A stretch of DNA of 48,550 nucleotides from Christensenellales bacterium. GTDB taxonomy: Bacteria > Bacillota > Clostridia > Christensenellales > UBA1242. The notes beneath the pieces were generated by a model. It was given only the letters and a program-made list of their open reading frames with translations, did not search any database and was not told the DNA's origin. Numbering within the stretch: the stretch's first letter is position 1; every line of letters starts with the position of its first letter. Shown piece by piece: positions 16,299 to 48,493 of the stretch. The stretch is taken from NCBI GenBank assembly GCA_050943075.1, contig JBMNOM010000001.1:1-48550 (forward strand). Direction: 5' to 3'. The position numbers and the translations under genes were made by a program.

Positions 16299-16312
16299 CT
16301 TGTTTGCTCCTA

Positions 16313-20222: not shown

Positions 20223-20228
20223 TGCTTT

Positions 20229-20272: not shown

Positions 20273-20353
20273 ATAACTAAACTAAATAATTAACATCTTA
20301 TTCCAATTATAAACAAATCATTACAAAAAATTAATATTATTTTGTTTTTCGAC

Positions 20354-20387
20354 AAAAAAAATAGGCTTTTTAAAACCTATTTTTTTG
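20354..20387 (-). terminator. Weak candidate terminator after the 3,357-aa gene
   Basis: Stem atagg/cctat (20361-20365 with 20376-20380) plus 3 A:T pairs with a bulge, flanked by A8 and T7. This is the only hairpin between the giant genes and rpoB. Confidence 0.4.
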
Positions 20388-20394
20388 TCTTTAT

Positions 20395-26300: not shown

Positions 26301-29300
26301 GAACGCTAACACCAACATAAGTTTGTGCAAGGAAGTGTTTTTGCGCTGCAAGAGTGTCGTTAATTTCAATTCCTTTTTGCGCTGTTGCATCAAACCCAAA
26401 AACGTTAACATTGTTTTCATCTGCTGCAACTGCACCAAAACTACCTGAATAAAGTTGTGAGGCATCTTTTCCAAGTGATGTGCCATCTTCAATTGCTTGA
26501 AGTGCAAGATATTCTGTTGTTGAGCCATTGTTTATGCCAAATAATCCACCAAAGTAAGCAGTTGTTTCACCTCTATTTCTTCCATGAACTTTAACTCTGG
26601 ACACAATTAATTTTAAGAATTGTGTTCCAATGTTTTGTCCAACAAGACCACCAACAACGTTGTATGCTTGTGCAAATTCAATTTTGCCGCCAACTTTAAG
26701 CAAGTTGTCAAATTTTTTGTTTGAAAACTCTGCTTGTAAGTCGCCAATGTTTAAAGCATTTTGTGTGTGAATTTGCCCAGCATTTTGCCCAGCAAGAGCG
26801 CCAATATAGAAGTTAAAGGCAGATTCAGAACCGCTTTCGCCCGCTGGTTTCAAGGTCATTTCTGCATAAGCAAAGTAAATGTCTTTGCCGTATAGTTTGT
26901 AATTTGAAATGTAATTTCTTCTAACAATTTCGCCAGCTGTTGTGTTGTGACCTGTTATGCCACCAAAATAACTTTGTGCTGAAAGTGATGCTGTTGAGAA
27001 GTAATTATACATTGTAAATTTGCCAAGCATTGTTAGTGCTGAAACGTTTTGGTTGTAAAAACTTTGTTGAATTCCAGTTTGGTTTTCATATTTATAGCCA
27101 ACTTCATTAACAATTTTACCGCTGTTTTCACCAGCAACACCACCAACATAAATTGGCACTTGTTTTTTAATGTGAACTTGGCTTTCGCTCAATTTGACAG
27201 AAACATTTTTAATAACTGCTTCCGCCCCAATTCTTGCACTAAGCAAACCAATGTAAACTGAATTTACATCAAGGTCATCTTTAACTTGAACGTTAATTTG
27301 TCCCCAAATTGCCAAGTTTTCAATAACACCTGTGCCTGGTTTTGCTTGGTTTTGTGAATCTCTTTGAGGCTCAATACTTGCAAAAAGCCCTGCATACGCT
27401 TTGGAATCTGCAGTTGTGAAATTTGTCACAGAAATCCCTGTAATTGCTGCACCCAAACCACCTCTAATGCTTCCTGTAAACACGCCAAGATTAACAAATT
27501 GAACACCAGAAAAGTCAATTACTGTTCTAATTTCATAGTGTTTATCAAGCCCTAAAATTGAAATGTTTTTAAATTGCTCTGCTGTTGAAATTATAAAAGG
27601 ATTATTAATTCCACCAGTTCCAATTCTTATGTCAATTTGCAAACTTGCGCCAGGCATTGTGGATGCAATTGTTATTGCTGCTTTTGCAACAATAATTAAT
27701 TTTCCTGTTTGTCTAATGTTTTCATTAATATAAGCGCCATTTTCGTTGTATCTAACTCTTGCTCCACCATTTGGCAAAGTTTCAAGTTTAACAAGTTCAC
27801 CTGAAACACCTGTATCTGCCAAAAATTGATATTGCAATTCTTGGTGCACTGCTGTGTCTGGCAAAACATAAGGCATCAAGTCAAATGTTGGGTTTGCTGG
27901 GTCAAGATAAATTAAATTAACCGGAGCTGAAAGCCTAACATTTTTTGGTGCTTCATATCTAACAGGATTAATTTGGAAATATGCGGAATAAATTCTGTCG
28001 TTGTAATTAACTGTGAAGTTAATTCTAAACGATGAATAAATGTCGTTTGTTAAATTGAGTGTAAACTCACCTGTTTCAATGTTGTAAGTTCCGCGTTCTT
28101 TTAAAACAAGCAATTTGTTGTTGTTTGGGTCAACGCTTATGTCCACAGTTGAAGTAAAGTTTTCTGCTTTAAGTTCAATTTTGGATTGCAAACTGATTGG
28201 TTGAGTTTGCAAAACAAGATTAGCCCTTGACAAGTTTTTATAGTAATAACCAAGTTCATTATCACTGTATAAATCAACACTTGTTTGATTAAACATAATT
28301 CTTTCAAGTGGAATGTATGCGTTAACTGCAAGATTTCTTTCAAAAACATAGTTTTCGTAATCTGCGTCTGTTTCCTCAACTTCTTTTAACGAAAAGTTTT
28401 CAACTTTTTTCATTTTAAAAATAAGTGTGAAAACTTGTCGGTCAAAGCCGTTTTCATCTGTTCTGATTGAAAGCATTTTTGTGCTTTCTGAAAACTCCAC
28501 AAGTGAAGTTGTTGAATTTGTTGGCAAAACACTAAGTGTGTAAAGCAAAGTGTTCTTTAAGTTAAAATTGCCAGGTGTGATTTTGAAAATTAATTGTAAA
28601 TTTGCCTTGTATTGAAGTGTTGGATTTGTTAAAGCATCTCTAACCAATTCAACCCCAATTTTTTCAAGACCATTATTTGGGTTGTATGTGCGTTTTGAAG
28701 TTGTTGAAGATTTTAATGGGTCAAAATCAAGTTCAACCGAAGTCACACTGTCCACAACATCAACTGTGAAATCACGCGAAACATTGCCAACGCGAATATT
28801 CCATCTTCCGCTTCCAACAGAAAGTGGAGTAATTTTTAAAACAATATATTTTTTGCCATTGTAAATTTCTTCTGTGCTTTCAACTTCAACACGTGCAAAA
28901 AGTGAGGCATCTTGCGTTTTTGCCCCAATTTGCACATTGCCTGTGTAGGCATCAATGCTGTTAACATAAAATCCGCGGAAAAGTTTTTGTCCTTGTGTTT
29001 TTTCCAAGAACAATCTGCCATCTCTCCATTCTTCATCAATAGATAATGATTCTGCACCTTTTTTAACAACAAAGTTAAGTTGATATGTTTTAAAACTTGT
29101 GTTTTCATCAAGTTCTAATTCACTTCCATAAAACATTTTTAAATTTAAACTAATTATAAACTCATTTGTTGATGCAACGCCGCGTGCAACAATTGGTTTT
29201 GTTATGTCTGTGATTGTTTCTGGAAGTGGTTTTTTGTCGTATGTAAACTCAATGTAGTCTTTAACTTCACCACTTAAACCACTTGATTTATTGTAAGAAA

Positions 29301-30468
29301 CTTCAATTTTGTCAAAGTTTGCGTTTAATGGAAAAATTGAAATTAACGCTTGCAAATTAACGGCTGAATTAACACCTGATAAAAGAATATTTGTTTCCGC
29401 CTCATTTTCAAGTTTGTTGTTAATTAAAATGTTGTCTGGATATTCCAAAATTTCCACATCAAAAGTTCTTACAATTTCATAATCCAAATCTTCATAGTCT
29501 TTATAGTAAGCAACAAATTTAATTCTTGTTGTTAAATTTGGTTTGATTGCTTGCAAGTTAAAATGAAAAATTGTTGCGTTCTCTGTGATAGTTTTGTAAT
29601 TGTCCACATTTGTTTGCAAAATTGCTGCAATGTCATTTTCAACAATTGCTTTAACAGCAATTAATGGTGATGTTGTGAACGCTGCAACATTAAGTTCAAT
29701 TGAAGATAGGTCTGACCTGTTTGAAACAAGAATGAGTTTGTCTGCTTGTGTTGTTTGTGTGCCTTGTTCAATTGAAACAAGTTCTCCAAGCCCTTTAAGA
29801 ACTTTAACTTCTTCAATTTCGTTAACAAATTCAACAACATATTCTTGAACTTGCGTTATGTATGGGGAAGAAACATAAATTTTTGCGCTTGTTTTGCCAG
29901 CGTATTCTTCGCTGTTTGCGTCAACTTTTGTAATTTCTTCACCTTTTTCATTTTTGAAAATTAATGTTTTTTGTAATGTTGTTGATGGGTAAAATTCAAA
30001 AAGATTGGAATTTAAAATTAATGGTTTTGAATATTTTTCCCCTCTAACTGCATAAAGAGCTGATGCTTTGAGTGCAAAACTTTCAACTTTTTCTGCAATT
30101 GTAATTTTAACTGTTAAATTGTTTCCACCTTCTGCAATTGCTTTAAGATTAACAAGTGCATCAGCTTTTAATGCTTTAAATTTAACTGTTGTTTTATTTG
30201 TTTGATTACTGAAACTCAGCACTTCAACTTGTGAAATTGAGTTTGAATCTGTTGTGAAAAACAACCTTCCACTTGCATTTTTTGGCAAGGAAGAAACAGT
30301 GAAAGAAATTGTTTTTTCTTCTCCAACAAACATGGAAAGAACACCAGAAGTATCCCCCTCGTAGCTTGCTGTTATTTTAATATCCTTTAAGGTAAGCCCG
30401 CACGCTGTTAAAAGCAGCGAGCTTGCCATTATTAATGTGAATATTAAGGATTTTAAAAACTTTTTCAT
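20395..30468 (-). CDS. Giant surface lipoprotein (3,357 aa) with Ig-like segments and GLUG-type solenoid repeat blocks
   Basis: Uninterrupted ORF with SD AAGGAGA 6 nt upstream of ATG 30468. The signal peptide MKKFLKSLIFTLIMASSLLLTAC carries a lipobox. Three blocks open with cap-like motifs (e.g. NNPFIISTAEQFKNI at about 27560-27617). Each is followed by GG[ILV][VAF]G / AGFV..N.G.I repeats. Confidence 0.9.
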   Translation of the reverse strand: MKKFLKSLIFTLIMASSLLLTACGLTLKDIKITASYEGDTSGVLSMFVGEEKTISFTVSSLPKNASGRLFFTTDSNSISQVEVLSFSNQTNKTTVKFKALKADALVNLKAIAEGGNNLTVKITIAEKVESFALKASALYAVRGEKYSKPLILNSNLFEFYPSTTLQKTLIFKNEKGEEITKVDANSEEYAGKTSAKIYVSSPYITQVQEYVVEFVNEIEEVKVLKGLGELVSIEQGTQTTQADKLILVSNRSDLSSIELNVAAFTTSPLIAVKAIVENDIAAILQTNVDNYKTITENATIFHFNLQAIKPNLTTRIKFVAYYKDYEDLDYEIVRTFDVEILEYPDNILINNKLENEAETNILLSGVNSAVNLQALISIFPLNANFDKIEVSYNKSSGLSGEVKDYIEFTYDKKPLPETITDITKPIVARGVASTNEFIISLNLKMFYGSELELDENTSFKTYQLNFVVKKGAESLSIDEEWRDGRLFLEKTQGQKLFRGFYVNSIDAYTGNVQIGAKTQDASLFARVEVESTEEIYNGKKYIVLKITPLSVGSGRWNIRVGNVSRDFTVDVVDSVTSVELDFDPLKSSTTSKRTYNPNNGLEKIGVELVRDALTNPTLQYKANLQLIFKITPGNFNLKNTLLYTLSVLPTNSTTSLVEFSESTKMLSIRTDENGFDRQVFTLIFKMKKVENFSLKEVEETDADYENYVFERNLAVNAYIPLERIMFNQTSVDLYSDNELGYYYKNLSRANLVLQTQPISLQSKIELKAENFTSTVDISVDPNNNKLLVLKERGTYNIETGEFTLNLTNDIYSSFRINFTVNYNDRIYSAYFQINPVRYEAPKNVRLSAPVNLIYLDPANPTFDLMPYVLPDTAVHQELQYQFLADTGVSGELVKLETLPNGGARVRYNENGAYINENIRQTGKLIIVAKAAITIASTMPGASLQIDIRIGTGGINNPFIISTAEQFKNISILGLDKHYEIRTVIDFSGVQFVNLGVFTGSIRGGLGAAITGISVTNFTTADSKAYAGLFASIEPQRDSQNQAKPGTGVIENLAIWGQINVQVKDDLDVNSVYIGLLSARIGAEAVIKNVSVKLSESQVHIKKQVPIYVGGVAGENSGKIVNEVGYKYENQTGIQQSFYNQNVSALTMLGKFTMYNYFSTASLSAQSYFGGITGHNTTAGEIVRRNYISNYKLYGKDIYFAYAEMTLKPAGESGSESAFNFYIGALAGQNAGQIHTQNALNIGDLQAEFSNKKFDNLLKVGGKIEFAQAYNVVGGLVGQNIGTQFLKLIVSRVKVHGRNRGETTAYFGGLFGINNGSTTEYLALQAIEDGTSLGKDASQLYSGSFGAVAADENNVNVFGFDATAQKGIEINDTLAAQKHFLAQTYVGVSVPDGQPLPTGKRRFVDFNISPSLTNYYGDMLIGEIGQVFEEALATLSATPLEENVLASEEGSVSMAYLYYYEALNKQDQALLNTINTYSLPFVTEGEVSIYSFNPNTITVLSSSQLRIMQTGFAQIRITSMLNQRIYKDVVIYIANAASNFALYKDGSKELIIADSINVGAAGSLININTLNNVVLTSVFYETLDANDFGGYDIPLVNSNDFTLYATDYSYDAIQTVLFEKNNATYQLRAINSTGRTTIEIKAKLEVVYSDGNVYSSTFLKNEEVDTSVNIPVMHLIGASKIESNISSVKAEPIDNFDYEVKLTTDDFSDNLNLTQFKVINSDMVAGNYFTITNINKIYNISVANFLPENFFKNQEENLENKKIAIEITKHVGQNTQTKQIIIEINPITKMLRFENGAFSQSLNLDTNTVFTLDERIDVTYSFELFLKNENSSEYDVKDENYDLTSFIKLNYIAQRFNASLTIKEDSASIANYNFRYQDEKAQISLNIEVQILTQQIANIIVQSFEGSTSQDIEAGKEENNFVDPQATNPNHFKVQVYPVFSQFDYLDVVLLNDNLSAIISLIDQSGNTVRGAVLLDKGLRVDKSLITSDIYIKYALSQAGATNGQTVNFAFKAYKGNQIAFETVKTVNVKFKKDVTININNNYKDQNENFYLARGKNYSFTIQSNGYLESEIFLTTTNAEYLAISKANRTISVSQVISTYPENNIAGTISVYGQKIINGQALRSEIHTINFVIVDFIVLKNNEYSIIKDGSNGIVSVPIGDTYTFKTEFLNGLTAEYNSSILTVVEGVKAFENNLANSGIWRYQMATPTGDGGYEFLEDSANWRTINNNTSIPNGTTLVSLNDTNGYFTIVKSRGNLVFTPYKIVSDKNPMYKFGFEYGYDYKQGKAEYSTTQNITQVEFVMNIYQISSMDTPTPVASYEELIAMNPNSYYILTNDIIIPHDHTPITTAIAGLDGNSYKFVLASNLSFNADSQYMGIFASIPEKTLLRNLKIEVVQSAIVTLTQAESAKTIYFGLLAGINRGIVSNVEVVTAGNTSVKVLFSQNQVVSNYVAGLVGFNQGYITNSRVKMTISAAANLSGFVGYNIGKISSSYVAESLIINTASVNESQNKTAGFVVYNGQYSESGGQIIMSYVSGKHTGLFMLPIYANDTSKVILSSTEAAGFVFENNGLVQDSYSNIPLQTSSKAAGFVFYNKGEVVRAYSTSMLKNNAVETSFGFVYIDDITSMGIIKDSFYLRDITANINASINTTNSMVNPEFLKPLTIQEFTDSNSSFFKNYNFTNSTAVSHGVWFRPTMTQESQFNNNSKVFILGKPELVSPNLIAESKMEIDMDRTVENKETGEITYYYTNVGEHAQGSLHNPTLIISAQELEFRILSSNSGSFNTKYYRIVSDINYDSVNPVSRLYNTILVGDIEGNGMIISGFVVDSAATFASGGLFAKIGNGSSSQGSVKNLSVKPLSINLPNVNVVGGLAGTLDAGVIFNIKVENASSSDNTNVIIGKNIVGGIIGRATANYVIHTVKSSVSVNAIFRSNKTLNPNEILTDGIGSYFLFRNHQTTLLSKLSYAAPVVAVAGGTGTISSVTSNGQIVAMAEWASLVFGGVGNGVKINNVRLEVETGQFVQGATYSALVAAEFYGQMTDVYVNSNSQNAHTTLFRTSPYNPYGVGGVVGLMGSKGNLQNSELAAGGLLKNVVINIRFEAPTVNRVGGVVAEMIGGKLESVTFNGSVKGKIIVGGLVGAITQKATAPIKLNEATLVSNGFADANIIVNSISKGGTIGLENIDNKGTAFIGGLVGLISKAKDGVALNVRIIGSKSESEVRVKYDTYNVAFDELYAGGLVGFVFNDSDVADSLTLSFDSNSGFTGRIVLYLRILQQIGEGPTHYISWGHIVGYMNKGSVDQPTGFVPTYKANQVVYNAESVAQDGKDYILLRIFNSSTGVFESMAQTFWENRYNQVGTQATV
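30400..30468 (-). other. Type II (lipoprotein) signal peptide of the 3,357-aa protein
   Basis: MKKFLKSLIFTLIMASSLLLTA|CG. The Cys codon TGC is at 30400-30402. Confidence 0.75.
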
Positions 30469-30522: not shown

Positions 30523-33500
30523 CTATTCCTCAGGAATTGGAATTATTGTAAGTGTGAAGAGTGTTCCATTTGGTAAACCAAGCACAACAGTTCCACCTTG
30601 ATTGTAAAAAGCATCTTCTGCTTCTTCGTTGTTGTAATAGCCTTCAATTGTGTTTCCCTCAATTGTTATTGAGTTAACAGCAATAATTAAGCCTGCGCTT
30701 CCGCCATTTTCTCCATTTGAGCCATTTCCAGCAATAATTTCGCCTGTGTTTGAAATGAGCCCCATATTCAATCTGTTGCTTTCAAAACTCATTAAAACGC
30801 CATAGTAAATATTAATTTGAGGATCTCCATCTTCGTCAACATAATCTTCAGTGTAGAAGTTGTAAACCACAATGCCGGCTGCATTTCCACCAGGTTGTCC
30901 TGTTGCGCCATTGCCAGCGGTAATATTACCAGTGTTTTCAGATTTTGTGATACCTCTTAACAAGTTACCATTTTCATCATAAGCTGGGCTACTACTATCG
31001 TTTGAACCATTGTAAATTGCAATTCCGGCAGCGTCGCCACCTTTGGTTGCTTCAATGATAATACCATCGTTTTCTTGAGTTTCTTTGCCTGCTTTGATGT
31101 CGCCAAAGTTTTTAGCGCCAGTAATTAGCCTTTGGTTAACACCAACAATACCAGCAGCATTGCCGCTTTTAGATGTTAAGTTGTAGAAGTTTAAAACATT
31201 TGAAATTGTGCCGTTATTATTAACAGAAATTCCATAAATTTCATCGTTTGCAATTATGGTTTTAACATCGCTTGCGCTTCCAATTCTTACATTGTCAATT
31301 AAGCCATTATTGTTAATTGCAACACCAGAAAGTGAGAAAAATCCATCAAATCCAATTCCAGTAATTGTTCCTCTATTATCGAAGATGAACGATTTATATA
31401 GAACAGATTGTTCTTCATCAACTGAATTTTGCAATGTTATTTTTTTAGAAGTCATACTTCTTAAACTTCCATTGAAAACATTAATTACTGTTTTATTTTC
31501 TGTCATATTTTCAACAGGGATTGAAATATCGTAATCTAAGATAAAGTCTTTGTCAGAGCCCAAATTAGCAAGAAGAACAAACTCTGCGAATTGTGCTTTG
31601 GTTTTAATTTCATTGTTATCTGGTAGCAATAATCCTTGTGCATTAACACTGGAGAATGTCGAGCTAATGAAATTAAATGTTATGTTTGTTGCACTTGGAA
31701 GTTGTGCTTGACCATTTTCATCGCTATTAATCAAAATATATTGATCTTTTGTTTGGTTATATGAAATTGTGCTTCCTGCATCAAAATTAATTCCACTTTG
31801 ATGATTATCTGTCCCCTTATTATTGAAAAGAATTTGATTAATACTGTCAAATTTTTCACTATAATTATCGATTGCTAATCTAATATTAAGATTTTCAATT
31901 TTTCCTCGTCCAGATAATAGTGACAAGCTTGGATAAGAACCATTAATTATAATTTTTGCATTTCTAGTATCACTGATTTTTCCGTTTATTGTTCCGTAAA
32001 AACTTGGAAGAGGCTCATAAACATCGGCTGCATAATCTTCAGGTTTAGCATGACCAGATGGCGTTTTTGCAAACCTAAAATCTCTGGTTAGATAGTATAT
32101 AACATTATCGTTTTGATATGTATTATTAATAAATATGGCTCTTCTAAGGTCGCTCCAATCATTAATTATAAAGTTTCCATTTGCATCAACATTAACCTTT
32201 GATCCGCCAACATTAGGCACAGTTGTAACTTTTTCAATTTCATAAGGACTGCCACCTATGCCTCCTGGAGTTGTGTAATAATCATTATAAAATAATAATG
32301 CTGTTTGATAAATAATTTTTATATTTCCAAGATTTTTATATGTAAAATATGATGCTTTTCCTTTTCTTAAATCACTATTTTGTAATGAAATATCATCAAA
32401 ACTATATAATTCAAGTGCAACATCTAATAATTCATAAGAATTGCCGTTGAATCCTGCATTTCCGCCAGTTCCACCATGTCCACCAAAGCTATATACAGCA
32501 TCATATAAGGCAAACCAGGGGTTCACATTTTGAAAATCTAGTTCAGCTAGGGATTTTCCTAAAACACCATGTCCGCCAATTCCACCTTTACCACCATATC
32601 CACCTCTGCCTTCAAGTCCTGCAATTGCAATTGGCTGAATTAATGATTTTGCGTTTGATTGAGCAATTTTTGAATTTCCAATTCCTATATAATGAGCAAT
32701 TATTGAACTTCCACCATTTCCACCGTCTCCGCCATTTCCGCCGTTTCCGCCATGGAAACGATCGTTTTTAAGTTCACTCAATCTATCAAAGAATTTAAAA
32801 AATTCAATTGAGGCCTTTTCTCTATTTCCATGTCCACCATCTCCGCCATATCCACCATCGCCACCAGTTCCACCATGGCCGCCAATAATAATGCCAAAAT
32901 TGTTTCCTGTTACATAGCTTTCTGAGCTTATTGATTTTGAAGCAACGCCGCCAATTATGCTTGCATTGCCACCAGGAAGTCCATCTTTTCCATTTTCACC
33001 TGGAAGCCCGTAATCTGTATCAGGACTATCCACAGCATTAAGTCCACCGCCGCCATCTACAATTGTTGGTGAATTGATACTAATTGAATATAGTTTTTTA
33101 CCAATGATACCAACTGTTTCATATGAAGTTGTGCCATCATCAGCCACTAATTCATCGATATAGTCCGACAATGCGGCATATCTCCAAATAATCATAAGTC
33201 TATCTAATGGAAGAGGATCTTTGTAAAGTTGTATGCTTTTTTGCTTATATTTTAAATAAATGTTATTAAGCAAGGTTTGATATAAATTCATTGCTTCTGA
33301 TGAATAAAAACCTTTGTTGTAAAAGTATTTATAAATGTCTCTTACCAATTCAGTTGAGTCAAAACGATAATAACCATTTACAATTGTTATTAATTTAAAT
33401 TTATATAATAAACTTGGATTATTAATAAACCTTTCAACATATTCATTATATAAATTTATAAATGTTTGTCCTAGGTTTTCAAGTGTTGTAAGACCCTCTG

Positions 33501-36500
33501 ATTCATCATTATTGGCGTCTGTTCTTCCAATTCCCAAATATTGTTCGTTTTCAACTTCATAAATTTCTGAATCTGTATAGGCAACCACTGTATAGAAATA
33601 CTTAATGAATGTTTTTTCTTCTTGTGTTAAATATAATCCACCAGTCTTTGTGTCTATGTCAGATTGTTGTATTAACTTATCCAATAATGCATTGTCTCTA
33701 CCATAACCTTGTCCACCATTTCCTGCAATTAATGCACCAAAGTTATTGCCATCAATAATTTCAGCATTTTCGTTGTTAATTGCAACAATTCCACCAATTT
33801 TTGATGCAGATATTGAGTTCGTTCTATGTATGATACTTTCGATATCTTGATATCTTGCATTTTGTCCATCATTTGAAGTGATAACAGCAAAATTGTTAAC
33901 AGATTTAATTTTTGCAAAATTGTTAATTGCCAAACCAGAAAGATTGTTTTTACTATCTGTCACGTCTTCATTAAGCAATTCACCATTTTTTATAATTGAA
34001 CCATATACATTGATGTTTTGCAATAAACCATAGTTTTTATTTACAAACAATGAGTTGTAATAATATGATTTACTTATTGTTCCCAACACATTTAAGTTTG
34101 TGATTGTGGAATCAGCACTTACGCTGTTAATTAAAAATTGTTTTATTGTATCACTGTTAAACTTGTAACTTAACAATTTGTTATTACCATAGATTATTCC
34201 ATCGAATGAATCAATGAACATTTTTACCATGCTGCTGTTGTAATAATCTGATATATCAATATTATTCATTAAAATAATACTAAATGTGCTTGTAACTTCA
34301 TTTCTATATCTGCTTAAAGCTGTTTTCAATTCAGCAAGATTGTAAATTAAGTAAGGTTTTTCTTTTGTTCCATTACCTTGTAAAGTAGTAACATCTTGTG
34401 GCAATGCGCGATTACTTGGTGTTTGTTTAACATCTTGAAGTGTTTTGTTAAACAAAGTGTAAACTGATTCATCAACCACAATTTCGTTATTTTCAGTAAC
34501 AAATTCTTTTCTAACAAGACCATGATTATAGTTTGCAGCTTGGCTGTTTTGACTTGGGCGGTAACCAATTCCATAGGTGTTGTTTTCAAGCAATTCAGCA
34601 TTTTCATTCTCAATATGAGATGAGTAAACAAAGCCATAGTTTTCGTTGCCGTAAATGTCGTTAGAACTGCTTACATTTAAGAATGTTGCTGCAATTCCAC
34701 CTGCATTAATTGTTGCGTCGTTTTCAGATAAACTTGGGTTGATTAAACGAACAATAACATTTCCTGTGTTGATTGTTGATTTAATTGAACCGCCATTAAG
34801 TTTTCCAACAATTCCACCTGCATAGCCATAGTAATTTGAAACAACTGAAACACCAAGATTTTTGGAATTTTCAATTAAGCTGTTTGTTGCAAGCCCTGCA
34901 AATGCACCAACAACACCTGTGCCAAATTTGTCTGGATTATCCATAACAACTTGTCCGTTTGCCAAAGTGAGGTTGTGAATTTCGGTTTCGTTAATTGTTG
35001 AGAAGAAACCATTGTTTGTTTTTTGGTTTTCTTGGTTTGATAAAACTCTAAAACCAGAAATTGTGAAATCATTACCAAAAAGTTTAAGTTTGTTTAATGA
35101 CATTGAATTCCAGTTCCAGCTTGATTGTTCATCAAGTGCACTGAATGTATCTCCATCATCAAACCTACCCATTGCGTCTGTTATGATAATGTCATTTGTT
35201 AAGTAAACATTTTTATTAACACTAATTTGTAACAAATCATCTTTTTGTTTTAAAATTCCCAAGTTTGAAATTAAGTAATCTTTGTCTATTGAAGTTAAAA
35301 CTCTCATGTAATCAAAACTTGAAGAATTATAATTTCTGCCAAATGTTAAATAACCAAAGTTGTAATTTACCTTAAATTCAAAGTTTGTGTTAACACTTGG
35401 TTGCATTGAAAATAATTGTTTTGTGATTAATTTTTGTGCTGTTCCAGCTTTGCTTTCAACACCAGTTGCATAAATGTCATAAGCATTTGTGTCGTTTGCA
35501 CTGTAACCAAACACATTGTTAAGTGATGTGAGTGCTTTTGTTTCACTTTCTTTGTTAAATGCGTTAACTGCATTTGTGTAAGCAAATGAATTTCTAACAC
35601 TTGGGCCTGCATTATTGTTATTCAAAAATGCAACATTTTGATTATCAGCACCAAATGAATATGCAATTCCAAATGGTGTTTTAATATATCCGCTTGAAAT
35701 TGATGTTTTGATGTCGCCTTCGTTAATTCCAACAAAACCAGAAGTTATTGGTCTAATTGTGAATGAACTACCATTAATTTGAATGAAATCTGCAAAGTCT
35801 TGTTCCACAAACAAATTGTTGTTAATTGCTGTGTTTGATGTTGTTTTAACATCAGTAATATTGTTAATTTCAATGTTTGTTAAACTATCGGCAATAAAAC
35901 CTTTATTCAACCCAACAATGCCACCAACAAGGTTTGTGTTTGTAATTAAAAGTTTTGCGTAAAATTCATTGCTGTATGTCGCAAAATCTTGTGAAACATA
36001 TTCTTTTCCTTTAACAGCACTTGCGTAAATTACACCATGGTTAACTGCTGAAAGTGCTCCATAAATTGTGAATGGGTAGGAATAAACGCTTTGGCCATAT
36101 TTGTAAAGATAACCTGAATATCCTTCTGGATAAACATAGTTTTGTTCAATATCAAGTGTTAAATTAAGCCCAGAAATGAATGATTTTTCATCAATTTCAT
36201 TAAACACGCGTTTTTCTGTGTTCTTAAGCTGAATTTGTTTTCCATTTCCAATAATTGCAATGTTGCTGATAGAAGTTTCGCCAAGTTTAATTGCAGGTTG
36301 GTTAAATGTTTGAATGTCACCAAGTGTAAAATATGTTCTAAAATCTTTTCTTAATGTTCTTGCTGACAATGAAGTTGAAGAAAATTCGCTTGAAGAGTTA
36401 ATTTCATAAGGGTTTAATTTATGTCCATTCTTAACAAGTTTACCATCTCCATCAACAGCAAATAGTGAATTTTCTGCTGACAAAATTGTTCTAATTAATG

Positions 36501-39500
36501 ACTCGCCCATTTCATTAAGCAATTCTTCATAAGTTAAGTTTTCTGCAAATATTTTTTCACTTGTGAGGAATAAGCTTGAATGAGTTGTTAAGTTGATTTG
36601 GCTTGAATAATAGTTGTTTGAACCTTGTTCAGTGTTTGCTGCACTTAATGTTTTGTTTCCTGCAACAGCATCTAGCCAAACTTTTTCATTAATTCTGTTT
36701 GTGTAAAGTGTTGTTAAAATTTTATTGTTTTTAACAAGTGTATTGTTTGAAGATGTTCCAACAAGCCCACCAATATAACTTGATTTTGTTTCTGCCACGC
36801 TTGCTAGTGGTTGATAAATTAAGTTAATATCACCAAACGCAATGTTGCCTTCCAAAAGAACTTGTTTGGAATAAATTGTGCTTGAACTTGTTTCAACATT
36901 TGTTGGAACTTTAATTCTTCCAATTAATCCACCCGCATTAATTGAAGAATTGTCATGGCGAACAATGTCAAAAGAAGTGTTAACAATGTTTCCTGTTCTG
37001 TCTGTTGTTGTTCTGCCATCAATTGTTTTTAATGAATATGATGGTGTTAAATCGTTAACTTTAGCATCCAAAACATCAAGATAGCCAACCAATCCGCCAG
37101 CATCAACTTGTTTTGAATTTTCAATTTTAACAACTTGATTTGTGTTGTTTTTGAAAATGTTGGATTCATTTGATGAAGAATTAAGGCTTCCAATAATTCC
37201 ACCAAATCGAACAAAGGCTGAACCAGAATTTGTTGAATTGTTTGAAATTTTTGGGTTAAACAATTTTCCAACAAGGTTTGATGAAATTGTCACAGTGTTG
37301 TTTGCTTCGCCTGCAATACCACCAACATACAAATTGTTTTGGTTTGCTCTAATGTCAAATGAAGTTGGAATGCTTCTTAAATCATCACTTTCTTCACCCT
37401 TACCAACAACAACGTTATCAATTTTTAAAAGCCCTTTAACATTACCCACAACACCACCAATGTGAACATTTGAGTAATTTTCAGTTTGAGTTGGCAATTG
37501 ATTTTGGAATGCAACTGATGGTTTGATGTTAAGTTTTGTGTTTTCTGTGAATGCTGTGTGCACATTGCCACCTGCAAAACCAAACAAACCACCAATGCTT
37601 GCACTGCTTGCAGCATTGTTGTCCCCTGCCTTAAATTTGGCAGCAAAATCAAAGCTTACTGTTGTGGCAACTTCTTTTGCTGGCTCAAGCAACATAATTG
37701 AAGCATTGCCAACAAAACCTGCCAAACCACCTGCTTTAAGTGTGTAATAATCGCTTTCTAAACTACTTCCAGTTAAAGAGATGAAGAGGTTTTGAATGAT
37801 TGCTGCTGGGCCACGATTTGTAAAGCCCAAAGTGTCTCTTGAAAACTCAACGCTTCCTTGAACAACCGCACCAATTATTCCACCAACATTAATGTTTTTA
37901 ACAATTGAAACTGATGGATCATTTGCTGTGATTGAAGAGCCATCAATGTTAATTCCGTTTCTATTATTAACATTAATTTTAATGTTTTTGAATGTTGTTT
38001 TAATGTCACTTGTTGCTTTTGCAGTGATTAAACCCGCATAGAAGTTTGCATCTTTATTTACTGCTTGGCTTGTCACATATTGCATCATAATTTTCTTTGT
38101 TGTTGTGTAATTTACTTCAAGGTTTTCAAACGTTGAGTTAATTGCATGCCCAACAAGCAATGCCGCATTGCGAGATTCTGTGACAATTCTTGAGTTGTTA
38201 ATTATAATATTTTTGAAAATTGCAACGCTTGATTGTTCCACCAAAAGTGCCGAGCCTTTCATAATGTCAATATCATTGTGATAGCCTGAATCTTGAATTA
38301 CAAAATCGCTGAACACAGCACCATTTGTTGCAATCCCAATTAATGCTTCTTTAAGAGCATAACCACTAAAGCCATATTCTGGAACTGGTTTTCCTACAAG
38401 TTCTTCATTTTCTGGTGTATAGCCTTTCAAAACACCACTAAATGATTGAATTTGTTTAAATGTTTCATCAGTTAAACTGCTTAAATCAATAATTTTATTT
38501 TGAGAATCTGGCCCGCCTGCAATGATGATGAATGTTTTGTCTGGATAAGTTGCCATTAATGCAAAATCTGCAGCTGTTCTAATGTAGATGATTGAAGATG
38601 AAACTGTGAACACAATGCTTGGCAACAAGTTGCCTGTTTTTCTTTCCCAGTTGTTTTCATCCCAGTCATTATTTCTGAAAATGATGTCCATTTGAACAGC
38701 GTCAACTGCAACATCTCTAATTTCGTTTAATGGAACAACCTTGTCTGTGATTGTTTTTGGATCATTTTGAGTTCCGCCAATGATAGATTTTTGCAAATAA
38801 TAGTTTTCATTTGCTTTGATGAAATAATTTGTTGTGTAAATTTTTGGCGTTAACAATCCATTGTATGTTTCAGGAATCATGAAGAGATCTGAAATGAGTG
38901 AATTTGGTGAGTCACTTGTTCTTGCAACTGAATGAGCTGAATAATTTATTGAAGCAATGAATTGTTTTGCTTTTGTGTCGTATGTGTATGCATACAAGTC
39001 GTAAATGTCTTTTGTTTCAATTTTGTTGTTTGCACCCAAAATTGTTGGTTGTGTTTTGTTTAAATATGTAATTGTATTAAGACCATCAATAATTATGAAC
39101 ACCTCTTCATAATCATTAAATGTGCTTGGTGCAACAAATTCAACAAAACCAAATGCACCACCTGCACCAGCTGCAAACTCTTCTTGCACACCCACAATTT
39201 TTTCTTTTGATGAAGCAGATTTCAAATCGCCAAAGTGGTAAAGTTCTTGAATTAAAACTGTGCCAATTGGTTTAAGATTTCTGTATTCTGTGTCAACTTT
39301 AAAGTCGCCAATTGCGCCAATAAGTCCGCCAACAAAACGAGCGTTTGTGCCAATTACGTTAACTTTTGCATAGGAATTTGAAAGTTCACCAGAGAACACT
39401 TGACCAACAAGCCCACCCACGAAAAGTGGCTCGTAGTCTGCATTTGCTTCAATGAATAATGTTTCATTTCCTCTTGTGAATGTCAAGTTTGTGTTGTAGT

Positions 39501-42500
39501 AGTTTGCAATGTTGTTTTCAATTGTTTTTTGCAACACTGCTGTGTGTTCAATTTTGGATTGTGTTAAATTGCCAAACAATTCGCCCACAAGTCCGCCCGC
39601 TGCATATTTATATGAAATGATTTTTTGAGTTGCGGTTTGTGTGTTTGCAACAACTTCATACGATAAATCACGCAAGAAAGTGTTAAGCCCAGAATAGCCC
39701 AAAACACCACCAACAGTTGCTGCTCTTATTTGATTCATGCCAAACACTTTAAGGTTTGCAGAAGCTGAATAAGACATCACTCTGTCTTTAAAGTAGAATT
39801 TTTGTCCAAGTTTGTCTTCTGTGAAAATGTCAACAACACCAGCAATGCCACCAGCATAGCTTAATGTTTGGTTATTCATTAACGCAAGGTTTTCTTTTCT
39901 TATATATGTTTGTCTTTCAAACGAGGTTTTGTTAAAGAAGTCTGCTGTCACAGAAACATTTGTTGTGGTTAAACTGATGATTTCTGAATTACCTGTCACC
40001 AACCCCACAATTCCGCCCACAATGTTTTGTCCTAAAACAAGCGCAGTTTGTGAGTTGTTTTGTGCAAAGAGATTGATGTTTACAATTTTGGAATTATTAA
40101 TTGCACCAGCAACTGCACCAACGTGTGTTATGTTTGAAGCATTAATTCCAAGCAAACCAATGTTCAAGTTTTTAATGATGGAGTTCTTTTCAAGATATGC
40201 AAACATACCATAGAATTTTTGAGTGTTATTCACACTTGAAACAAGTTCTATGTTTGAAATTGTGAAGTTGTTTCCATCCACAATTGCTGCATTTGTTAAA
40301 CGCATTTCTGAAGATGACAATTTGTAATCTTCGCCTTGTGAAGAAGTTAAATCATAAAGATTAATGTTTGCAAGAATTCTGTAATTTCCAAACACTGCTT
40401 TTTGTTCAAGGTTGAAATATTGTTGAATTGGAGTTGATTTTGAAAGGCCAAATACATCGTTAAACTCTTTTGCATTTCTAATTAAAATTGGGTTTGAAGA
40501 TGAGCCATAAGCATAGCCATCTGCATAAACCAAGTTTGCATTTCCTTGTCCTTCAACATGTCTGCTTGAAATTGCAATGTCATTTGCACTAATCAAGTCA
40601 ATTCCTTTTGATGTTGTCATAAACCAAACACCATCTTTTGTGTTTGCATTTGCAAATGAGAAACCATAGAAAAGTTCTGTGTTTGTTAAACTGTCAACTC
40701 TTAAAGCACCTGAATCGTAAAGTTCTTCAGTGTCGCCACTTCCAGTTGTTGTGTTAAGTGGAGCGTAATAATAGCTGTTTGTAATTGTGCCTGTGTTAAG
40801 CAAGTTGGAGTGTGAGTCAACCCCTGTGAAACTCATTTGAGTTGACTTGCTGTTTTCAATCACGCTTGATGAAAATGTTCTTTGAATTAAACCTTGGTTG
40901 TTGTAAACAAAACCAGCGCTATAACTCCCCGCATTGCCCGCTCTATCTTTAATCATGATATTGCTGTAGCTGTCGGAAATTTCCCCAGTGTTTAAGAACA
41001 CAAAACCAGCACCAACACTTGAAGTTGAAATGCCTGAACCTGTTGTTCTAATTTCGTTTGGATATCTTGTGTTGTAAGCACCTTTTGAATATGAAAGGCT
41101 TATTTTACCAGTGTTTGTGCCTGCAAAACCAGCTGTTGTTGTTTGACGTCCAACTGTTGTTGCATTTTGAATTTCAATGTTGTTTGTGAACGAGCTTGCA
41201 ATAAAGCCAGAGTTTGTTCCAACAAAACCATTGATGTTTCCTTGTGCTGAAAGTGTGAAAATTTGAAGTGGGTTTGTAATTGTTTGCAAGTATGAGTTTT
41301 GAACAACTTTAAACTCTGTTCCGCCCACGCGTGAGTTTGTGATATAACCCGAGCCATTGTTGTTTAAAACAAAGCCTGCAATATTGCTTGTCACATTGCT
41401 TGGAATGCTTGTGCCAGTTGTTCCTGTGGCATAAAGCACATAAATTCCTGGTGTTGGGTTTGCAACATTTGGCATTAAGTTGTTCATCTTGTAAGCCAAA
41501 ACATGAGAATTTGTGATTATACCATTGTTTTCAATGGCAAAGCCCGCAATGTTAATTGTTTTAAATTTTGCTGTGTTAATTGTTATTGTGTTTAAATGGT
41601 AATAGTTAACAATAACGTTTTTAATTGTTGTTGAAGATGTGACATTTCTGAAAAGTGCAAGCGATAAACTTGAAACTTCTTGTTCTTCCATTAAATCAAA
41701 ACTCATAATTGAAATAACTTTATTATTTCCGTCAAAGCTTTTAATTTTTGAAGTGTCAAATGGAACATAATTGTAAAGTTCAATATTTTCCATCAAAATG
41801 TAGTCTTGTGAAACATCTTGGTTTTGAATGTCCAAAAATTCTTGTGCTGTGTGAATTTGAGTTGGATTATCTTCATCTGTGTATGCTGTCACATTAATTG
41901 TGAAGTCATAAGTAAATTCTCTCACCATTCCATCTGGTGTTTTATATGTGAACAACAAGCGCATTTTTTGTTGCCCTGTTCTTGCACCAATCACACTTAA
42001 TGTGTTTGGAGCACTTGCACCTTCTGACACAGAAGAAGCAGGGGTTGAAGCGCCATCATCAATAAAGTCAAAGTCCACAATTCCTGATTTAATCACTTGT
42101 CCGTTTGCAGAAAGCACTTTTGTTGTTGAGCCATTTGCATTAACGTAATACAAATTGTTTAAGAAGTTTTTGTAAACGTATGAATTTGTGTCGCCTTCAT
42201 GATAGTTCAAAATGTAAGGCAAAGTTGAATTTGCTGGTTCAACATTATACAAGTAATTATATTTTCTAAATTTTTCAACTTGTGCTCTTAAAGCGCTAAC
42301 AGCCTCATTAAATTCTGGCATTGTTGCGCTGTAATCTCGCCACTCTGTTGTGTCAAAATCAAATTCAAGCAATTTTGAAATGCCAATGTAAATATTCAAA
42401 ACATTTGTGTTAAATGAATCTGTTTTTAATCTAAAGCTTTCTTTGTCAATTAAGAAGTCCACAACTGTCACTTTAACTTCACTTGTTGCAACTTCTTGCA

Positions 42501-48414: not shown

Positions 48415-48493
48415 ATTTCCTCCAAATGTAAACAAAAACTGTTCTGAAAAGGCATATTATATATAAATTTATTTTAGAGAATTTTTATAAATA

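What the first reader, a model, noticed from the sequence alone, without database searches (positions are those of the whole stretch)
32240..33640. Compositionally distinct island in the 5,963-aa protein: Tyr-rich helical stretch followed by five GGxGGxGG polyglycine runs
Seen: the solenoid pattern is interrupted in two ways. (i) A Tyr/Leu/Lys-rich, probably helical stretch at roughly 33063-33640 (TQEEKTFIKYFYTVVAY...YKYFYNKGFYSSEAMNLYQTLLNNIYLKYKQ...). (ii) Glycine runs separated by about 15-45 ordinary residues: VDGGGGLNAV..GLPGENGKDGLPGGNA, GGHGGTGGDGGYGGDGGHG, FHGGNGGNGGDGGNGGSS, GRGGYGGKGGIGGHG and FGGHGGTGGNAGFNG, plus PGGIGGSP near 32250. The periodicity is GGx, not collagen GXY, and it occurs nowhere else in either giant protein. 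Known: GGx runs can form polyglycine-II helix bundles or sandwiches, as described for the receptor-binding tip of T-even-type phage adhesins (gp38 family) and for snow-flea antifreeze protein. Similar runs dominate mycobacterial PE_PGRS proteins. Inference: this may be a specialised ligand-binding head, or a Ca-binding or rigid module, embedded in the stalk. In that case it would be the functional tip of the protein.
Basis: partly seen in the sequence, partly recalled or inferred. Interest (0 to 1): 0.65.

Follow-up and report, generated by a model that had tools for sequence, protein, structure and literature searches.

The report
Polyglycine-helix domain in giant surface protein
Near the far end of a 6,000-residue surface lipoprotein of an anaerobic-digester bacterium lies a conserved domain of five glycine runs with a strict three-residue rhythm. 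It is most likely a rare polyglycine-II helix bundle, and one of its variable loops has grown into a 230-residue tyrosine-rich insert found nowhere else.

Summary
All 15 GGxGG motifs of the four large ORFs lie at aa 5185-5395 of the giant protein, and the protein's glycine and tyrosine maxima fall in the island.

The glycine runs belong to one conserved module, aa 4898-4912 plus 5143 to about 5420. This module sits at the same place in the only two detectable homologues. A profile of its core, about 170 aa, finds 191 mostly unnamed proteins; the named ones are archaeal, bacterial, fungal and animal. None has a Pfam, NCBIfam or PDB relative by sequence.

The Tyr-rich stretch is a 230-aa orphan insertion in the module's first loop and is absent from the homologues.

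Every run keeps glycine at each third residue for 5-7 turns. AlphaFold2 gives the runs pLDDT 80-97 with neither helix nor strand, while the loops score low. Among strains, glycine codons change only synonymously, whereas loops and insert take amino-acid changes and an in-frame indel.

Best reading: a polyglycine-II-type bundle scaffold that displays variable loops near the distal end of a lipid-anchored fibre. The fold geometry and any ligand remain untested. It is not homologous to gp38, snow-flea antifreeze protein or PE_PGRS.

The parts
30523..48435 (-). Giant ORF, 5,970 aa from TTG or 5,963 aa from the ATG at 48412-48414. N-terminal lipoprotein signal ending in the lipobox LAAC.
   Evidence: No Pfam family at E<0.01 over the whole length.
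33700..33744 (-). NFGALIAGNGGQGYG (aa 4898-4912). This is the last element before the insert that is shared with the homologues, and it marks the N-terminal edge of the Gly module.
   Evidence: Aligns with NYGTLIGGNGGQGFG in P0002 and NYGALLGGHGGAGYG in P0003. Low pLDDT in the model.
33010..33699 (-). Tyr/Leu-rich orphan insertion (aa 4913-5142; 10.4% Tyr, 11.3% Leu). Predicted mostly alpha-helical at low confidence.
   Evidence: The homologues have a 13-16 aa loop here. No homologue in any search and no paralogue in either giant protein. AF2 predicts 7 helices at pLDDT 34-62.
32968..33009 (-). Run 0, GLPGENGKDGLPGG (aa 5143-5156). G-x-y period, conserved.
   Evidence: Near-invariant Gly columns in A1, A2 and A3. 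pLDDT 80-92.
32827..32883 (-). Run 1, GGHGGTGGDGGYGGDGGHG (aa 5185-5203). Seven Gly triplets in register. Preceded by the strand NFGIII.
   Evidence: Invariant Gly columns. pLDDT 92-97.
32755..32826 (-). Loop 1, NREKASIEFFKFFDRLSELKNDRF (aa 5204-5227). Variable and amphipathic.
   Evidence: Loop length is 17-57 aa across the family. Low pLDDT. Strain substitutions N5204D, S5209L and R5218Y.
32707..32754 (-). Run 2, HGGNGGNGGDGGNGGS (aa 5228-5243).
   Evidence: pLDDT 89-96.
32566..32610 (-). Run 3, GRGGYGGKGGIGGHG (aa 5276-5290).
   Evidence: pLDDT 78-94.
32485..32565 (-). Loop 3, VLGKSLAELDFQNVNPWFALYDAVYSF (aa 5291-5317). Variable; longer and hydrophobic in P0002 and P0003.
   Evidence: Strain substitution L5296R.
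32440..32484 (-). Run 4, GGHGGTGGNAGFNGN (aa 5318-5332). Shared only with the two homologous giant proteins.
   Evidence: Aligns with AGDGGGAGGTGFSGN in P0002 and AGDGGGAGGTGYSGN in P0003. pLDDT only 42-69.
32245..32265 (-). GGIGGSP (aa 5391-5397). A short Gly motif, weakly conserved.
32176..32244 (-). End of the island (aa 5398-5420). BLAST-detectable homology to P0002 and P0003 resumes at aa 5421.

Best explanation
The island is one folded domain with a guest inside it.

The host is a module of about 300 aa, made of aa 4898-4912 plus aa 5143 to about 5420. Its core is four or five glycine runs of 14-19 residues. Each run has Gly at every third position, and usually at two of every three. The runs most likely form left-handed polyglycine-II (polyproline-II-type) helices that pack side by side into a rigid bundle or sandwich. 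The 25-33-aa connections between runs are variable and carry short strands or amphipathic helices on the bundle surface.

The module is an ancestral, conserved part of this giant-protein family. It also belongs to a much wider family that has no annotation.

In this lineage the first connecting loop has been expanded by a 230-aa Tyr/Leu-rich insert, probably alpha-helical, with no relative anywhere.

The protein is lipid-anchored at its N-terminus and the module sits at 82-91% of its length. I therefore infer that the bundle works as a stiff scaffold that displays fast-evolving loops, the Tyr-rich insert included, for binding a surface or ligand in the anaerobic-digester community.

Shown: the runs, their register, their conservation, the insertion, transcription and the strain variation pattern. 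Inferred: the polyglycine-II geometry. Speculative: the binding role.
For: 1. Non-random order. All GGxGG motifs are confined to the island. There are 8 period-3 Gly registers of at least 5 triplets, against 0.23 in shuffles of the same 29%-Gly stretch. A three-residue period matches the three residues per turn of polyglycine-II/collagen-type helices, not alpha or beta structure (geometry as described in bioRxiv 10.1101/2023.11.25.568672).

2. Conservation in homologues. An exhaustive HMMER search of 1.84 billion representatives found, besides the protein itself, six proteins.
- P0002 and P0003 are collinear homologues on both flanks: window aa 4002-4903 and 5421-5935 match P0002 18-969 and 1316-1887. 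L089 is collinear from aa 1275.
- Both carry the Gly module at the same place with the same run order.

3. Wider family.
- The core profile A1 finds 191 proteins at E<=0.001 among the 8,000 candidates that were scored.
- 79 of them match at least 120 profile positions.
- Named sources include Nitrososphaerota, a Cyclobacteriaceae MAG, Endozoicomonas, Penicillium, Botrytis, a wasp and a rotifer.
- Invariant or near-invariant columns are all Gly.
- Register lengths are narrow, with medians of 6-8 triplets per run.
- Loops range over 11-65, 17-57 and 20-43 aa.
- Controls: real hits have a median of 46 bits, reversed sequences 24, shuffled -18 and 9-mer block-shuffled -10.

4. AlphaFold2. Two models give pLDDT 80-97 on runs 0-3 with DSSP calling neither helix nor strand. 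Loops score below 60. pTM is 0.61 for the core.

5. Insertion. The homologues have 13-16 aa where the window has 230 aa. The insert has no homologue or paralogue.

6. Real and expressed. The island DNA is present in at least 20 bioreactor, biogas or digester runs, including two metatranscriptomes. Contigs from other runs span it.

7. Selection pattern. The three strain changes that hit glycine codons of the conserved Gly motifs (G4905, G5186, G5194) are synonymous. Everywhere else in the laid stretch, 20 of 26 changed codons are nonsynonymous, and there is a 6-nt in-frame insertion in the insert.

8. Distal variability.
- Between strains, window 30523-34900 differs by 1-5%, against 0.04-0.3% for most of the remainder.
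- Identity to the L089 homologue falls from 41% (aa 1275-4519) to 29-31% in the regions flanking the island, and BLAST cannot align the island itself.
- Both giant proteins have lipoprotein signals.
Against: - 'Neither helix nor strand at high pLDDT' is only indirect evidence for polyglycine-II helices.
- Foldseek found no PDB match at E<=10. In BFVD it found only weak matches with poor TM-scores.
- Overall model confidence is modest: mean pLDDT 52 and 64.5.
- Reversed sequences keep about half of the profile score. Part of the family signal therefore comes from run spacing and composition, and the remote members are less certain than P0002 and P0003.
- The runs are 14-19 residues long, longer than the 4-11-residue helices tabulated for solved polyglycine-II bundles (PMC13243192). 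The architecture may differ from those bundles.
- Nothing tests binding, and about 570 conserved residues follow the module.
- The strongest strain divergence is at the extreme C-terminus and at 33000-34400, not in the Gly core.
- The strain comparison rests on few substitutions from assembled contigs.
Confidence: 0.5

Rival explanations
1. The module is a purely structural element. In this reading the Gly-run bundle is a rigid joint, cap or stiffener of the solenoid-like stalk with no ligand of its own. The Tyr-rich insert is then a tolerated, nearly neutral loop expansion.
For: - The module is internal: about 570 conserved residues follow it.
- Run-0-like motifs (G.G..G..GG.A) recur in the C-terminal repeats at aa 5841 and 5903. 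This suggests the module is an elaboration of ordinary rungs.
- The insert has no homologue and accumulates changes at a near-neutral ratio.
- Some solved polyglycine-II bundles, such as the one in acetophenone carboxylase, have no assigned ligand (listed in 10.1101/2023.11.25.568672).
Against: - A 230-aa insert is kept in frame, is transcribed, and is present in strains from many digesters.
- The same module occurs as the main part of small proteins, several with signal-peptide-like N-termini, and fused to P-loop NTPases. That argues for a function of its own.
- The distal quarter of the gene is the fast-evolving part, as is usual for interaction surfaces.
Confidence: 0.27
2. The module is a calcium-binding glycine/aspartate module, in the manner of an RTX beta-roll or as proposed for PGRS domains. 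The GGxGGD/N units would bind Ca2+ and fold or stiffen on binding.
For: The x positions of the runs are often D or N (GGDGG, GGNGG), and this holds across the family consensus. The protein is extracellular.
Against: - There is no GGxGxDxUx nonapeptide: the period is 3, not 9.
- No Pfam hit at E<=1, and therefore none to the RTX Ca-binding repeat family.
- AF2 places no strands within the runs, whereas a beta-roll has them.
- The x positions are also H, K, T, Y, R and I.
Confidence: 0.07
3. The glycine runs are a disordered, flexible linker, and the Tyr-rich part is an unrelated spacer. The pattern would then be low-complexity sequence without a fold.
For: - Gly-rich sequence is usually disordered.
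- Profile hits in the PDB are only synthetic GGS linkers.
- Mean pLDDT of the models is low.
Against: - The strict period-3 register and the order and number of runs are conserved in distant proteins.
- Block-shuffled sequences lose the profile score.
- pLDDT is 80-97 exactly on the runs. That is the reverse of what a flexible linker would be expected to give.
- Gly codons change only synonymously between strains.
Confidence: 0.06
4. The runs form a parallel, collagen-like intramolecular assembly. In this reading the 14-19-residue runs with Gly at every third position run in parallel, as a triple helix or parallel sheet of left-handed helices. Each long connection returns the chain along the full length of the bundle. 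That would be an architecture unlike the mostly antiparallel solved bundles.
For: - The runs are long and of similar length, 5-8 triplets.
- Every connection in every family member is at least 11-20 aa long. That is enough to span about 45 Angstroms back.
- Run 0 is G-x-y, and Pfam Collagen weakly hits 7 of 81 members.
- The solved bundles favour antiparallel packing with short turns (abstract of 10.1101/2023.11.25.568672).
Against: - The helix directions in the model could not be read.
- GGx, with two Gly in three, fits multi-neighbour bundles better than a collagen triple helix.
- The correlations between run lengths are weak (rho 0.15-0.48) and are not corrected for phylogeny.
Confidence: 0.1

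Closest known systems
Receptor-binding tip of T-even-type phage adhesin gp38 (Salmonella phage S16, PDB 6F45)
   Same: Both have glycine-rich motifs, conserved as such, separated by segments that vary in sequence and length. Both lie at the distal part of a long fibre. In gp38 the Gly motifs form a polyglycine-II sandwich that serves as a scaffold for binding loops.
   Different: - No sequence relationship: no Pfam family at E<=1, 6F45 absent from the PDB profile hits, and no relatives in viral contigs.
- The runs here are 14-19 residues, against 6-9 in gp38 (PMC13243192).
- The loops here are 25-230 aa rather than short.
- The host is a cellular lipoprotein, and the module is internal rather than terminal.
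Snow-flea antifreeze protein (PDB 2PNE/3BOG)
   Same: Both have runs such as GGHGGNGGNG and GGRGGKGGSG with Gly in a three-residue register. The snow-flea protein is a solved two-layer polyglycine-II bundle.
   Different: - hhalign gives probability 11% over 5 columns, so there is no homology.
- The snow-flea protein is an 81-aa protein with short turns and disulfides. It has no long loops and no flanking domains.
- An ice-binding role is implausible in a mesophilic digester bacterium.
Mycobacterial PE_PGRS proteins (PGRS domain)
   Same: Both have many GGx repeats. AlphaFold and molecular dynamics predict polyglycine-II bundles for PGRS domains (PMC13243192, PMC9436101). Both are surface-exposed, and PGRS domains are polymorphic.
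   Different: - No Pfam family, and therefore no PE domain, is detected.
- There are only five discrete runs in a fixed order, not hundreds of residues of near-continuous repeats.
- The phylum and the export route differ: a lipoprotein signal here.
Glycine-rich domain of ALK/LTK receptor kinases (PDB 7N00, 7NX1), and the Obg N-terminal domain
   Same: These are polyglycine-II helix bundles embedded in large multidomain proteins, where they act as rigid scaffolds. They tolerate diverse flanking segments (10.1101/2023.11.25.568672).
   Different: No Pfam family is detected at E<=1, so neither the ALK-type Gly-rich family nor the Obg family is hit. Neither protein appears in the PDB profile search. 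The run lengths and topology differ.
The unannotated family defined here by profiles A1/A3. Examples: Endozoicomonas numazuensis WP_051786605.1 'collagen-like protein', Penicillium herquei KAJ6028834.1, Nitrososphaerota MDA4117336.1.
   Same: These proteins share the ordered core: GxxGxxGxxGG, then a strand, then GGxGGxGGxGGxGGxG, then a variable loop, then GGxGGxGGxGGxGG, then a strand, then GxGGxGGxGGxGG. In E. numazuensis the module follows a region that matches Peptidase_M26_N.
   Different: - Most members are 250-420-aa stand-alone proteins, or are fused to P-loop NTPases.
- None has the Tyr-rich insert.
- Only P0002 and P0003 share run 4 and the flanking regions.

Membership tests
Glycine-rich polyglycine-II (PPII-type) helix-bundle domains (structural class) | Several sequence runs with Gly at every third residue (three residues per turn), usually GGx | tested here: met
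   Five runs carry 5-7 Gly triplets in register, making 8 registers against 0.23 in shuffles. The family-wide medians are 6-8 triplets per run.
Glycine-rich polyglycine-II (PPII-type) helix-bundle domains (structural class) | The runs adopt ordered left-handed extended helices (phi about -75, psi about +150) packed against each other through backbone hydrogen bonds | tested here: inconclusive
   AF2 gives pLDDT 80-97 on the runs, DSSP calls neither helix nor strand, and pTM is 0.61. The coordinates, dihedral angles and contacts could not be inspected.
Glycine-rich polyglycine-II (PPII-type) helix-bundle domains (structural class) | Detectable structural similarity to a solved bundle (2PNE, 6F45, 7N00, 1LNZ, 5L9W) | tested here: not met
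   Foldseek against the PDB gave 0 matches at E<=10 for the core model and only noise for the long model. Low-confidence loops, and a search method that may handle non-alpha/beta states poorly, may hide a match.
Phage adhesin gp38 family | Sequence homology to gp38 (Pfam GP38, PDB 6F45) | tested here: not met
   No Pfam family at E<=1. 6F45 is absent from the PDB profile hits. The viral contig scan found no relative.
Phage adhesin gp38 family | Conserved glycine-rich motifs alternating with hypervariable segments | tested here: met
   The invariant columns are all Gly. Loops range over 11-65, 17-57 and 20-43 aa and are unalignable between homologues. This is an analogy, not membership.
Phage adhesin gp38 family | C-terminal tip of a phage long tail fibre | tested here: not met
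   The module lies in a chromosomal lipoprotein gene upstream of rpoB/rpoC. It sits at aa 4898-5420 of 5,970.
PE_PGRS | N-terminal PE domain followed by a long, near-continuous PGRS repeat region | tested here: not met
   No Pfam hit anywhere in the protein. There are five discrete runs only.
RTX beta-roll Ca-binding repeats | Tandem GGxGxDxUx nonapeptides matching the Pfam RTX Ca-binding repeat family | tested here: not met
   The period is 3 rather than 9, there is no Pfam hit, and the runs contain no strands.
Collagen triple-helix repeat | Long (G-X-Y)n tracts (Pfam PF01391) | tested here: not met
   Only run 0 is G-x-y, with 4 triplets. Pfam Collagen does not hit the window protein. It weakly hits 7 of 81 family members.
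Snow-flea antifreeze protein | Sequence or profile homology to 2PNE | tested here: not met
   hhalign gives probability 11% over 5 aligned columns. The 2PNE sequence was verified.
   phmmer with the window sequence alone finds P0002-P0007 at whole-library E-values from 1e-11 to 2e-4. The profile finds 191 proteins.
Pfam DUF7932 | Match to the DUF7932 model | not testable with these tools
   The best BFVD structural match by probability (0.93, TM 0.24) is a Terrestrivirus protein named 'DUF7932 domain-containing'. No Pfam model hit any family member. Whether DUF7932 is in the library copy, or covers the Gly module, is unknown. No paper mentions it.

The most novel reading that the evidence does not exclude
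The Gly-run module defines a previously undescribed family of polyglycine-II-type bundle domains. It would be found in Archaea, Bacteria, fungi and animals, and possibly in giant viruses. Its helices would be unusually long, at 15-24 residues, and possibly parallel. Its inter-helix loops would be free to vary and could even host a whole 230-aa domain. It would then be a general loop-display scaffold, used in giant adhesin-like lipoproteins, in small secreted proteins on mobile elements, and in NTPase-linked proteins.
Probability: 0.35. Interest if true: 0.7.

Novelty: new variant of a known kind. Interest (0 to 1): 0.55.

Why it matters
Ordered glycine-rich polyglycine-II bundles are among the rarest protein architectures. 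The review read here lists only snow-flea-type antifreeze proteins, a conserved translation factor (Obg), acetophenone/acetone carboxylases, the phage S16 gp38 tip and ALK/LTK (10.1101/2023.11.25.568672). PGRS domains and some mycobacteriophage tail proteins have been added by prediction or recent cryo-EM work (PMC13243192).

A further family with about two hundred detectable members, whose named sources span several domains of life and which has no annotation, would widen that class. It would also offer small, tractable members for structure determination.

For this organism, the module marks the fast-evolving distal part of a transcribed 6,000-aa lipoprotein. That makes it a concrete candidate for the site where an abundant but uncultured digester bacterium contacts its substrate or its neighbours.

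Tried and rejected
- A word-indexed homology search with the whole island found nothing. The 8,000 candidates were probably swamped by Gly-rich words, and even the protein itself was not returned. The same tool with the insert alone also returned nothing, so its negative results are weak. I rely on the exhaustive HMMER search instead.
- Genome-collection and metagenome-contig scans for the island or the insert found no relatives. A viral-contig scan with the core profile also found none.
- Pfam, NCBIfam and PADLOC searches on the island, the homologues and the small family members gave nothing meaningful. The only hits were weak Collagen matches and Peptidase_M26_N on the Endozoicomonas protein.
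- PDB sequence and profile searches returned only engineered GGS linkers.
- Foldseek against the PDB gave nothing with either model.
- A relationship to the snow-flea protein was rejected by hhalign.
- RTX/Ca beta-roll, collagen triple helix and disordered linker were considered and rejected on period, Pfam results and AF2 confidence.
- Recent slippage expansion was rejected, because the DNA periodicities are imperfect and the Gly codons are mixed.
- Assembly chimera was rejected by independent contigs.
- A gene-wide nonsynonymous/synonymous comparison could not be completed, because the variant list for the whole gene was truncated.

Full report
**Context**

The finding lies in the ORF at 30523..48435 on the minus strand. 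This ORF encodes 5,970 aa from TTG, or 5,963 aa from the ATG at 48412-48414. The 5,963-aa form is identical to the database protein P0001. The N-terminus is a lipoprotein signal (…LVLFSGILAAC). The next gene, 20395..30468, encodes 3,357 aa and also starts with a lipoprotein signal (…SLLLTAC). It is followed on the same strand by rpoB and rpoC.

RpoB is 65-81% identical to uncultured Clostridia MAGs, several of them labelled Catabacter or Christensenella. In most of those loci a homologue of the second giant protein also lies upstream of rpoB. The island DNA is found in at least 20 bioreactor, biogas-fermenter and anaerobic-digester runs. No Pfam family matches either giant protein.

**Checking the observation**

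The island corresponds to aa 4932-5399. All 15 GGxGG motifs of the four large ORFs lie at aa 5185-5395, whereas composition shuffles of the protein give 0.29. The Gly maximum (32 per 100 aa) and the Tyr maximum (14 per 100 aa) of the protein are both here.

The stronger statement concerns the register. Glycine recurs at every third residue for 5-7 consecutive triplets in five runs, which makes eight registers. No register of even four triplets occurs elsewhere in the protein. Shuffles of the 29%-Gly core itself give 0.23, with a maximum of 4 in 5,000.

At DNA level the runs are imperfect 9/18-nt periodicities with mixed GGT, GGC and GGA codons, so they are not a fresh slippage array. Contigs from other metagenomes cross the whole island, including a 5.8-kb contig of X2 that covers 30523-34311. 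Metatranscriptome contigs of X5 cover the insert and runs 0-2. The island is therefore real, in frame and apparently transcribed, with the caveat that RNA libraries can contain DNA.

**Anatomy: one module with an insertion**

An exhaustive HMMER search of 1.84 billion cluster representatives with aa 4920-5420 found the protein itself and only six others.

P0002 (1,897 aa, cut at the start of its contig) and P0003 are homologues of the same giant-protein family. Window aa 4002-4903 and 5421-5935 align to P0002 18-969 and 1316-1887. The P0003 locus, L089, is collinear from window aa 1275 onwards. Its gene is split only by a masked run of N.

Between those flanks both homologues carry the Gly runs in the same order. 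The window reads NFGALIAGNGGQGYG, then 230 aa, then GLPGENGKDGLPGG. P0002 and P0003 read N[Y]G.L.GG.GG.G[FY]G, then 13-16 aa, then GE[TN]G..G…GG.

The Tyr/Leu-rich stretch (aa 4913-5142, window 33010-33699) is therefore an insertion into the first loop of a conserved module. It is not a separate element that precedes the module. The insert has no homologue in the exhaustive search, in the word-indexed search or in metagenome contigs. It has no paralogue in either giant protein. AF2 draws it as seven helices plus a hairpin, but at pLDDT 34-62 and without any alignment depth.

**A wider family**

P0004-P0007 share only the core of about 170 aa. P0004 is the Endozoicomonas numazuensis 'collagen-like protein' WP_051786605.1. 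P0006 is Penicillium herquei KAJ6028834.1. P0005 and P0007 are long proteins with an N-terminal P-loop.

A profile of these seven sequences (A1) found 191 proteins at E<=0.001 among the 8,000 candidates that were scored. Of these, 79 match at least 120 profile positions. Most are 250-420-aa hypothetical proteins. The named sources include Nitrososphaerota and Thermoproteota MAGs, a Cyclobacteriaceae MAG, Endozoicomonas, Craurococcus, Botrytis, the wasp Leptopilina and a rotifer.

The consensus has these parts in order:
- GxxGxxGxxGxxG(G);
- a strand;
- GGxGGxGGxGGxGGxGxxG;
- a variable loop;
- GGxGGxGGxGGxGGxGG followed by I-x-V;
- about 30 aa;
- GxPGxxGxGGxxGxGG.

The invariant and near-invariant columns are all glycine. 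Register lengths are narrowly distributed, with medians of 6, 8, 6.5 and 7 triplets. The three loops range over 11-65, 17-57 and 20-43 aa.

Because the sequence is compositionally biased, I ran controls. The real hits have a median of 46 bits, reversed sequences 24, fully shuffled sequences -18 and 9-mer block-shuffled sequences -10. The order and spacing of the runs therefore carry the signal, not composition alone. However, about half of the score is independent of direction, so the remote members are less secure than P0002 and P0003.

No Pfam, NCBIfam or PADLOC model matches the members. The exceptions are weak Collagen hits and one weak Gly_rich_2 hit.

**Structure**

Two AlphaFold2 runs were made. 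The first covered aa 4860-5450 with 45 sequences. The second covered aa 5130-5350 with 81 sequences.

| Element | pLDDT |
|---|---|
| Run 0 | 80-92 |
| Run 1 | 92-97 |
| Run 2 | 89-96 |
| Run 3 | 78-94 |
| Run 4 | 42-69 |
| Loops | mostly below 60 |

pTM for the core is 0.61. DSSP assigns neither helix nor strand inside the runs and places short strands just before or after them.

A glycine register with period 3, conserved over 15-24 residues and predicted with confidence as non-alpha, non-beta structure, fits polyglycine-II (polyproline-II-type) helices packed into a bundle. The geometry and the list of solved examples are given in 10.1101/2023.11.25.568672 and PMC13243192.

This is an inference. 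I could not read coordinates, so the dihedral angles, hydrogen bonds and helix directions are unverified. Foldseek found nothing in the PDB. In BFVD it found only weak hits to collagen-like phage proteins and mycobacteriophage minor tail proteins. The best probability (0.93, TM 0.24) was for a Terrestrivirus 'DUF7932 domain-containing protein'. I could not follow that lead further.

The runs are longer than the 4-11-residue helices tabulated for solved bundles, and every connection is long. A parallel or otherwise new topology is therefore possible.

**Relationship to known families**

Profile searches of the PDB return only engineered GGS linkers. They do not return 2PNE, 6F45, 7N00, 7NX1 or 1LNZ. 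hhalign against the verified snow-flea antifreeze sequence gives probability 11% over five columns. The Pfam scans detect no family at all, and so none of the gp38, PE, RTX Ca-binding, ALK-type Gly-rich or Obg families. No relative was found in viral contigs.

The module works like a gp38-type scaffold, with conserved Gly motifs and variable segments between them. It is not a member of that family or of any other described family.

**Variation and function**

Strain variants come from contigs of two other metagenomes and one metatranscriptome. Within the laid stretch, the three changes that hit glycine codons of the conserved Gly motifs (G4905, G5186, G5194) are synonymous. Twenty of the 26 other changed codons are nonsynonymous, and a 6-nt in-frame insertion lies in the Tyr-rich insert near aa 4963. 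The numbers are small.

Along the whole gene, strain divergence is concentrated in window 30523-34900, at 1-5% with several in-frame indels. Most of the remaining 13 kb differs by 0.04-0.3%. Identity to the L089 homologue falls from 41% (aa 1275-4519) to 29-31% in the regions that flank the island, and BLAST cannot align the island itself.

The N-terminus is lipid-anchored, so the island lies in the fast-evolving distal quarter of the protein. I read the bundle as a rigid scaffold that displays variable loops and the Tyr-rich insert for binding. That last step is untested.

The main rival is a purely structural joint with a tolerated loop expansion. It is supported by three points. About 570 conserved residues follow the module. 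Run-0-like motifs recur in the C-terminal repeats at aa 5841 and 5903. The substitution ratio is near neutral.

Small family members sit in mobile-element-like neighbourhoods with integrases, PIN/MazE, a D5-type primase and AbiEii. Others are fused to P-loop NTPases. This suggests the module is a portable scaffold used in several settings. No known defence model matches.

**Verdict**

A polyglycine-II-type ordered domain with conserved runs and variable loops is likely, and I give the fold about 0.65. Homology to gp38, snow-flea AFP or PE_PGRS is rejected. The Tyr-rich stretch is re-read as an orphan insertion inside the module. The 'functional tip' idea remains a reasonable but untested inference, at about 0.35.

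I rate the module as a new variant of a known kind of structure. It is of moderate interest, mainly to structural biologists and to those who study giant surface proteins of uncultured anaerobes.

Noticed in passing
window 12765-30468 (- strand): A second giant lipoprotein (3,357 aa, signal ending in LTAC) lies directly upstream of rpoB and rpoC on the same strand. Homologues of it lie upstream of rpoB in most of the related Clostridia MAG loci fetched, so the synteny is conserved.
   Followed up: partly
window 30523-34900 versus 35600-48435: Strain-level divergence within the giant gene is very uneven. It is 1-5%, with several in-frame indels, in the C-terminal quarter. The extreme is 5.3% at 30523-31448 in run X3. 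Most of the rest of the gene differs by 0.04-0.3%.
   Followed up: partly
window 44277-44874; joints 35243->44520 and 36929->47458: One run shows a word-depth spike (104x against about 7x). Contigs of two runs jump 9-10 kb within the gene. This points to internal repeats or a multi-copy segment that confuses assemblers.
   Followed up: no
window 868-1611 (- strand): A 247-aa ORF carries a collagen triple-helix repeat (Pfam Collagen, E=1.2e-6). It also gives weak matches to the Scl and Lcl collagen-like adhesin models.
   Followed up: no
window 8937-10385 (- strand): A 482-aa ORF gives a sub-threshold GLUG-motif match (E=0.0013). The repeats of the giant proteins look GLUG-like by eye, but Pfam does not call them.
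   Followed up: no
L083 5589-7716; L084; L085: In Nitrososphaerota-type contigs the 310-aa Gly-module protein sits in a conserved three-gene cassette of 135, 310 and 255 aa. The cassette lies next to a D5_N primase gene and a PIN/MazE pair. It looks like an integrated element.
   Followed up: partly
L086 5480-7638: The 355-aa family member P0011 and an unannotated 364-aa neighbour are flanked by five integrase or resolvase genes, an IS91-type transposase gene and an AbiEii gene. No PADLOC model matches the pair.
   Followed up: partly
P0005 (1,741 aa), P0007 (850 aa): Two proteins from unnamed metagenome sources combine an N-terminal P-loop NTPase (weak nSTAND3/AAA matches) with the same Gly-run module. 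P0010, from the parasitoid wasp Leptopilina boulardi, has a signal peptide followed by the module.
   Followed up: no
L089 about 9750-9990: The homologous giant gene in MAG GCA_964368245.1 is split into ORFs of 3,278 and 1,310 aa only by a masked run of N. The database protein P0003 is therefore a fragment of a protein of more than 4,600 aa.
   Followed up: yes
PDB 8ZXL/9IUS: A 780-aa chain named 'spindlefibril | axialfibril' matches the snow-flea antifreeze sequence at E=1e-20. It may be another solved glycine-rich assembly. It did not match the module profile.
   Followed up: no
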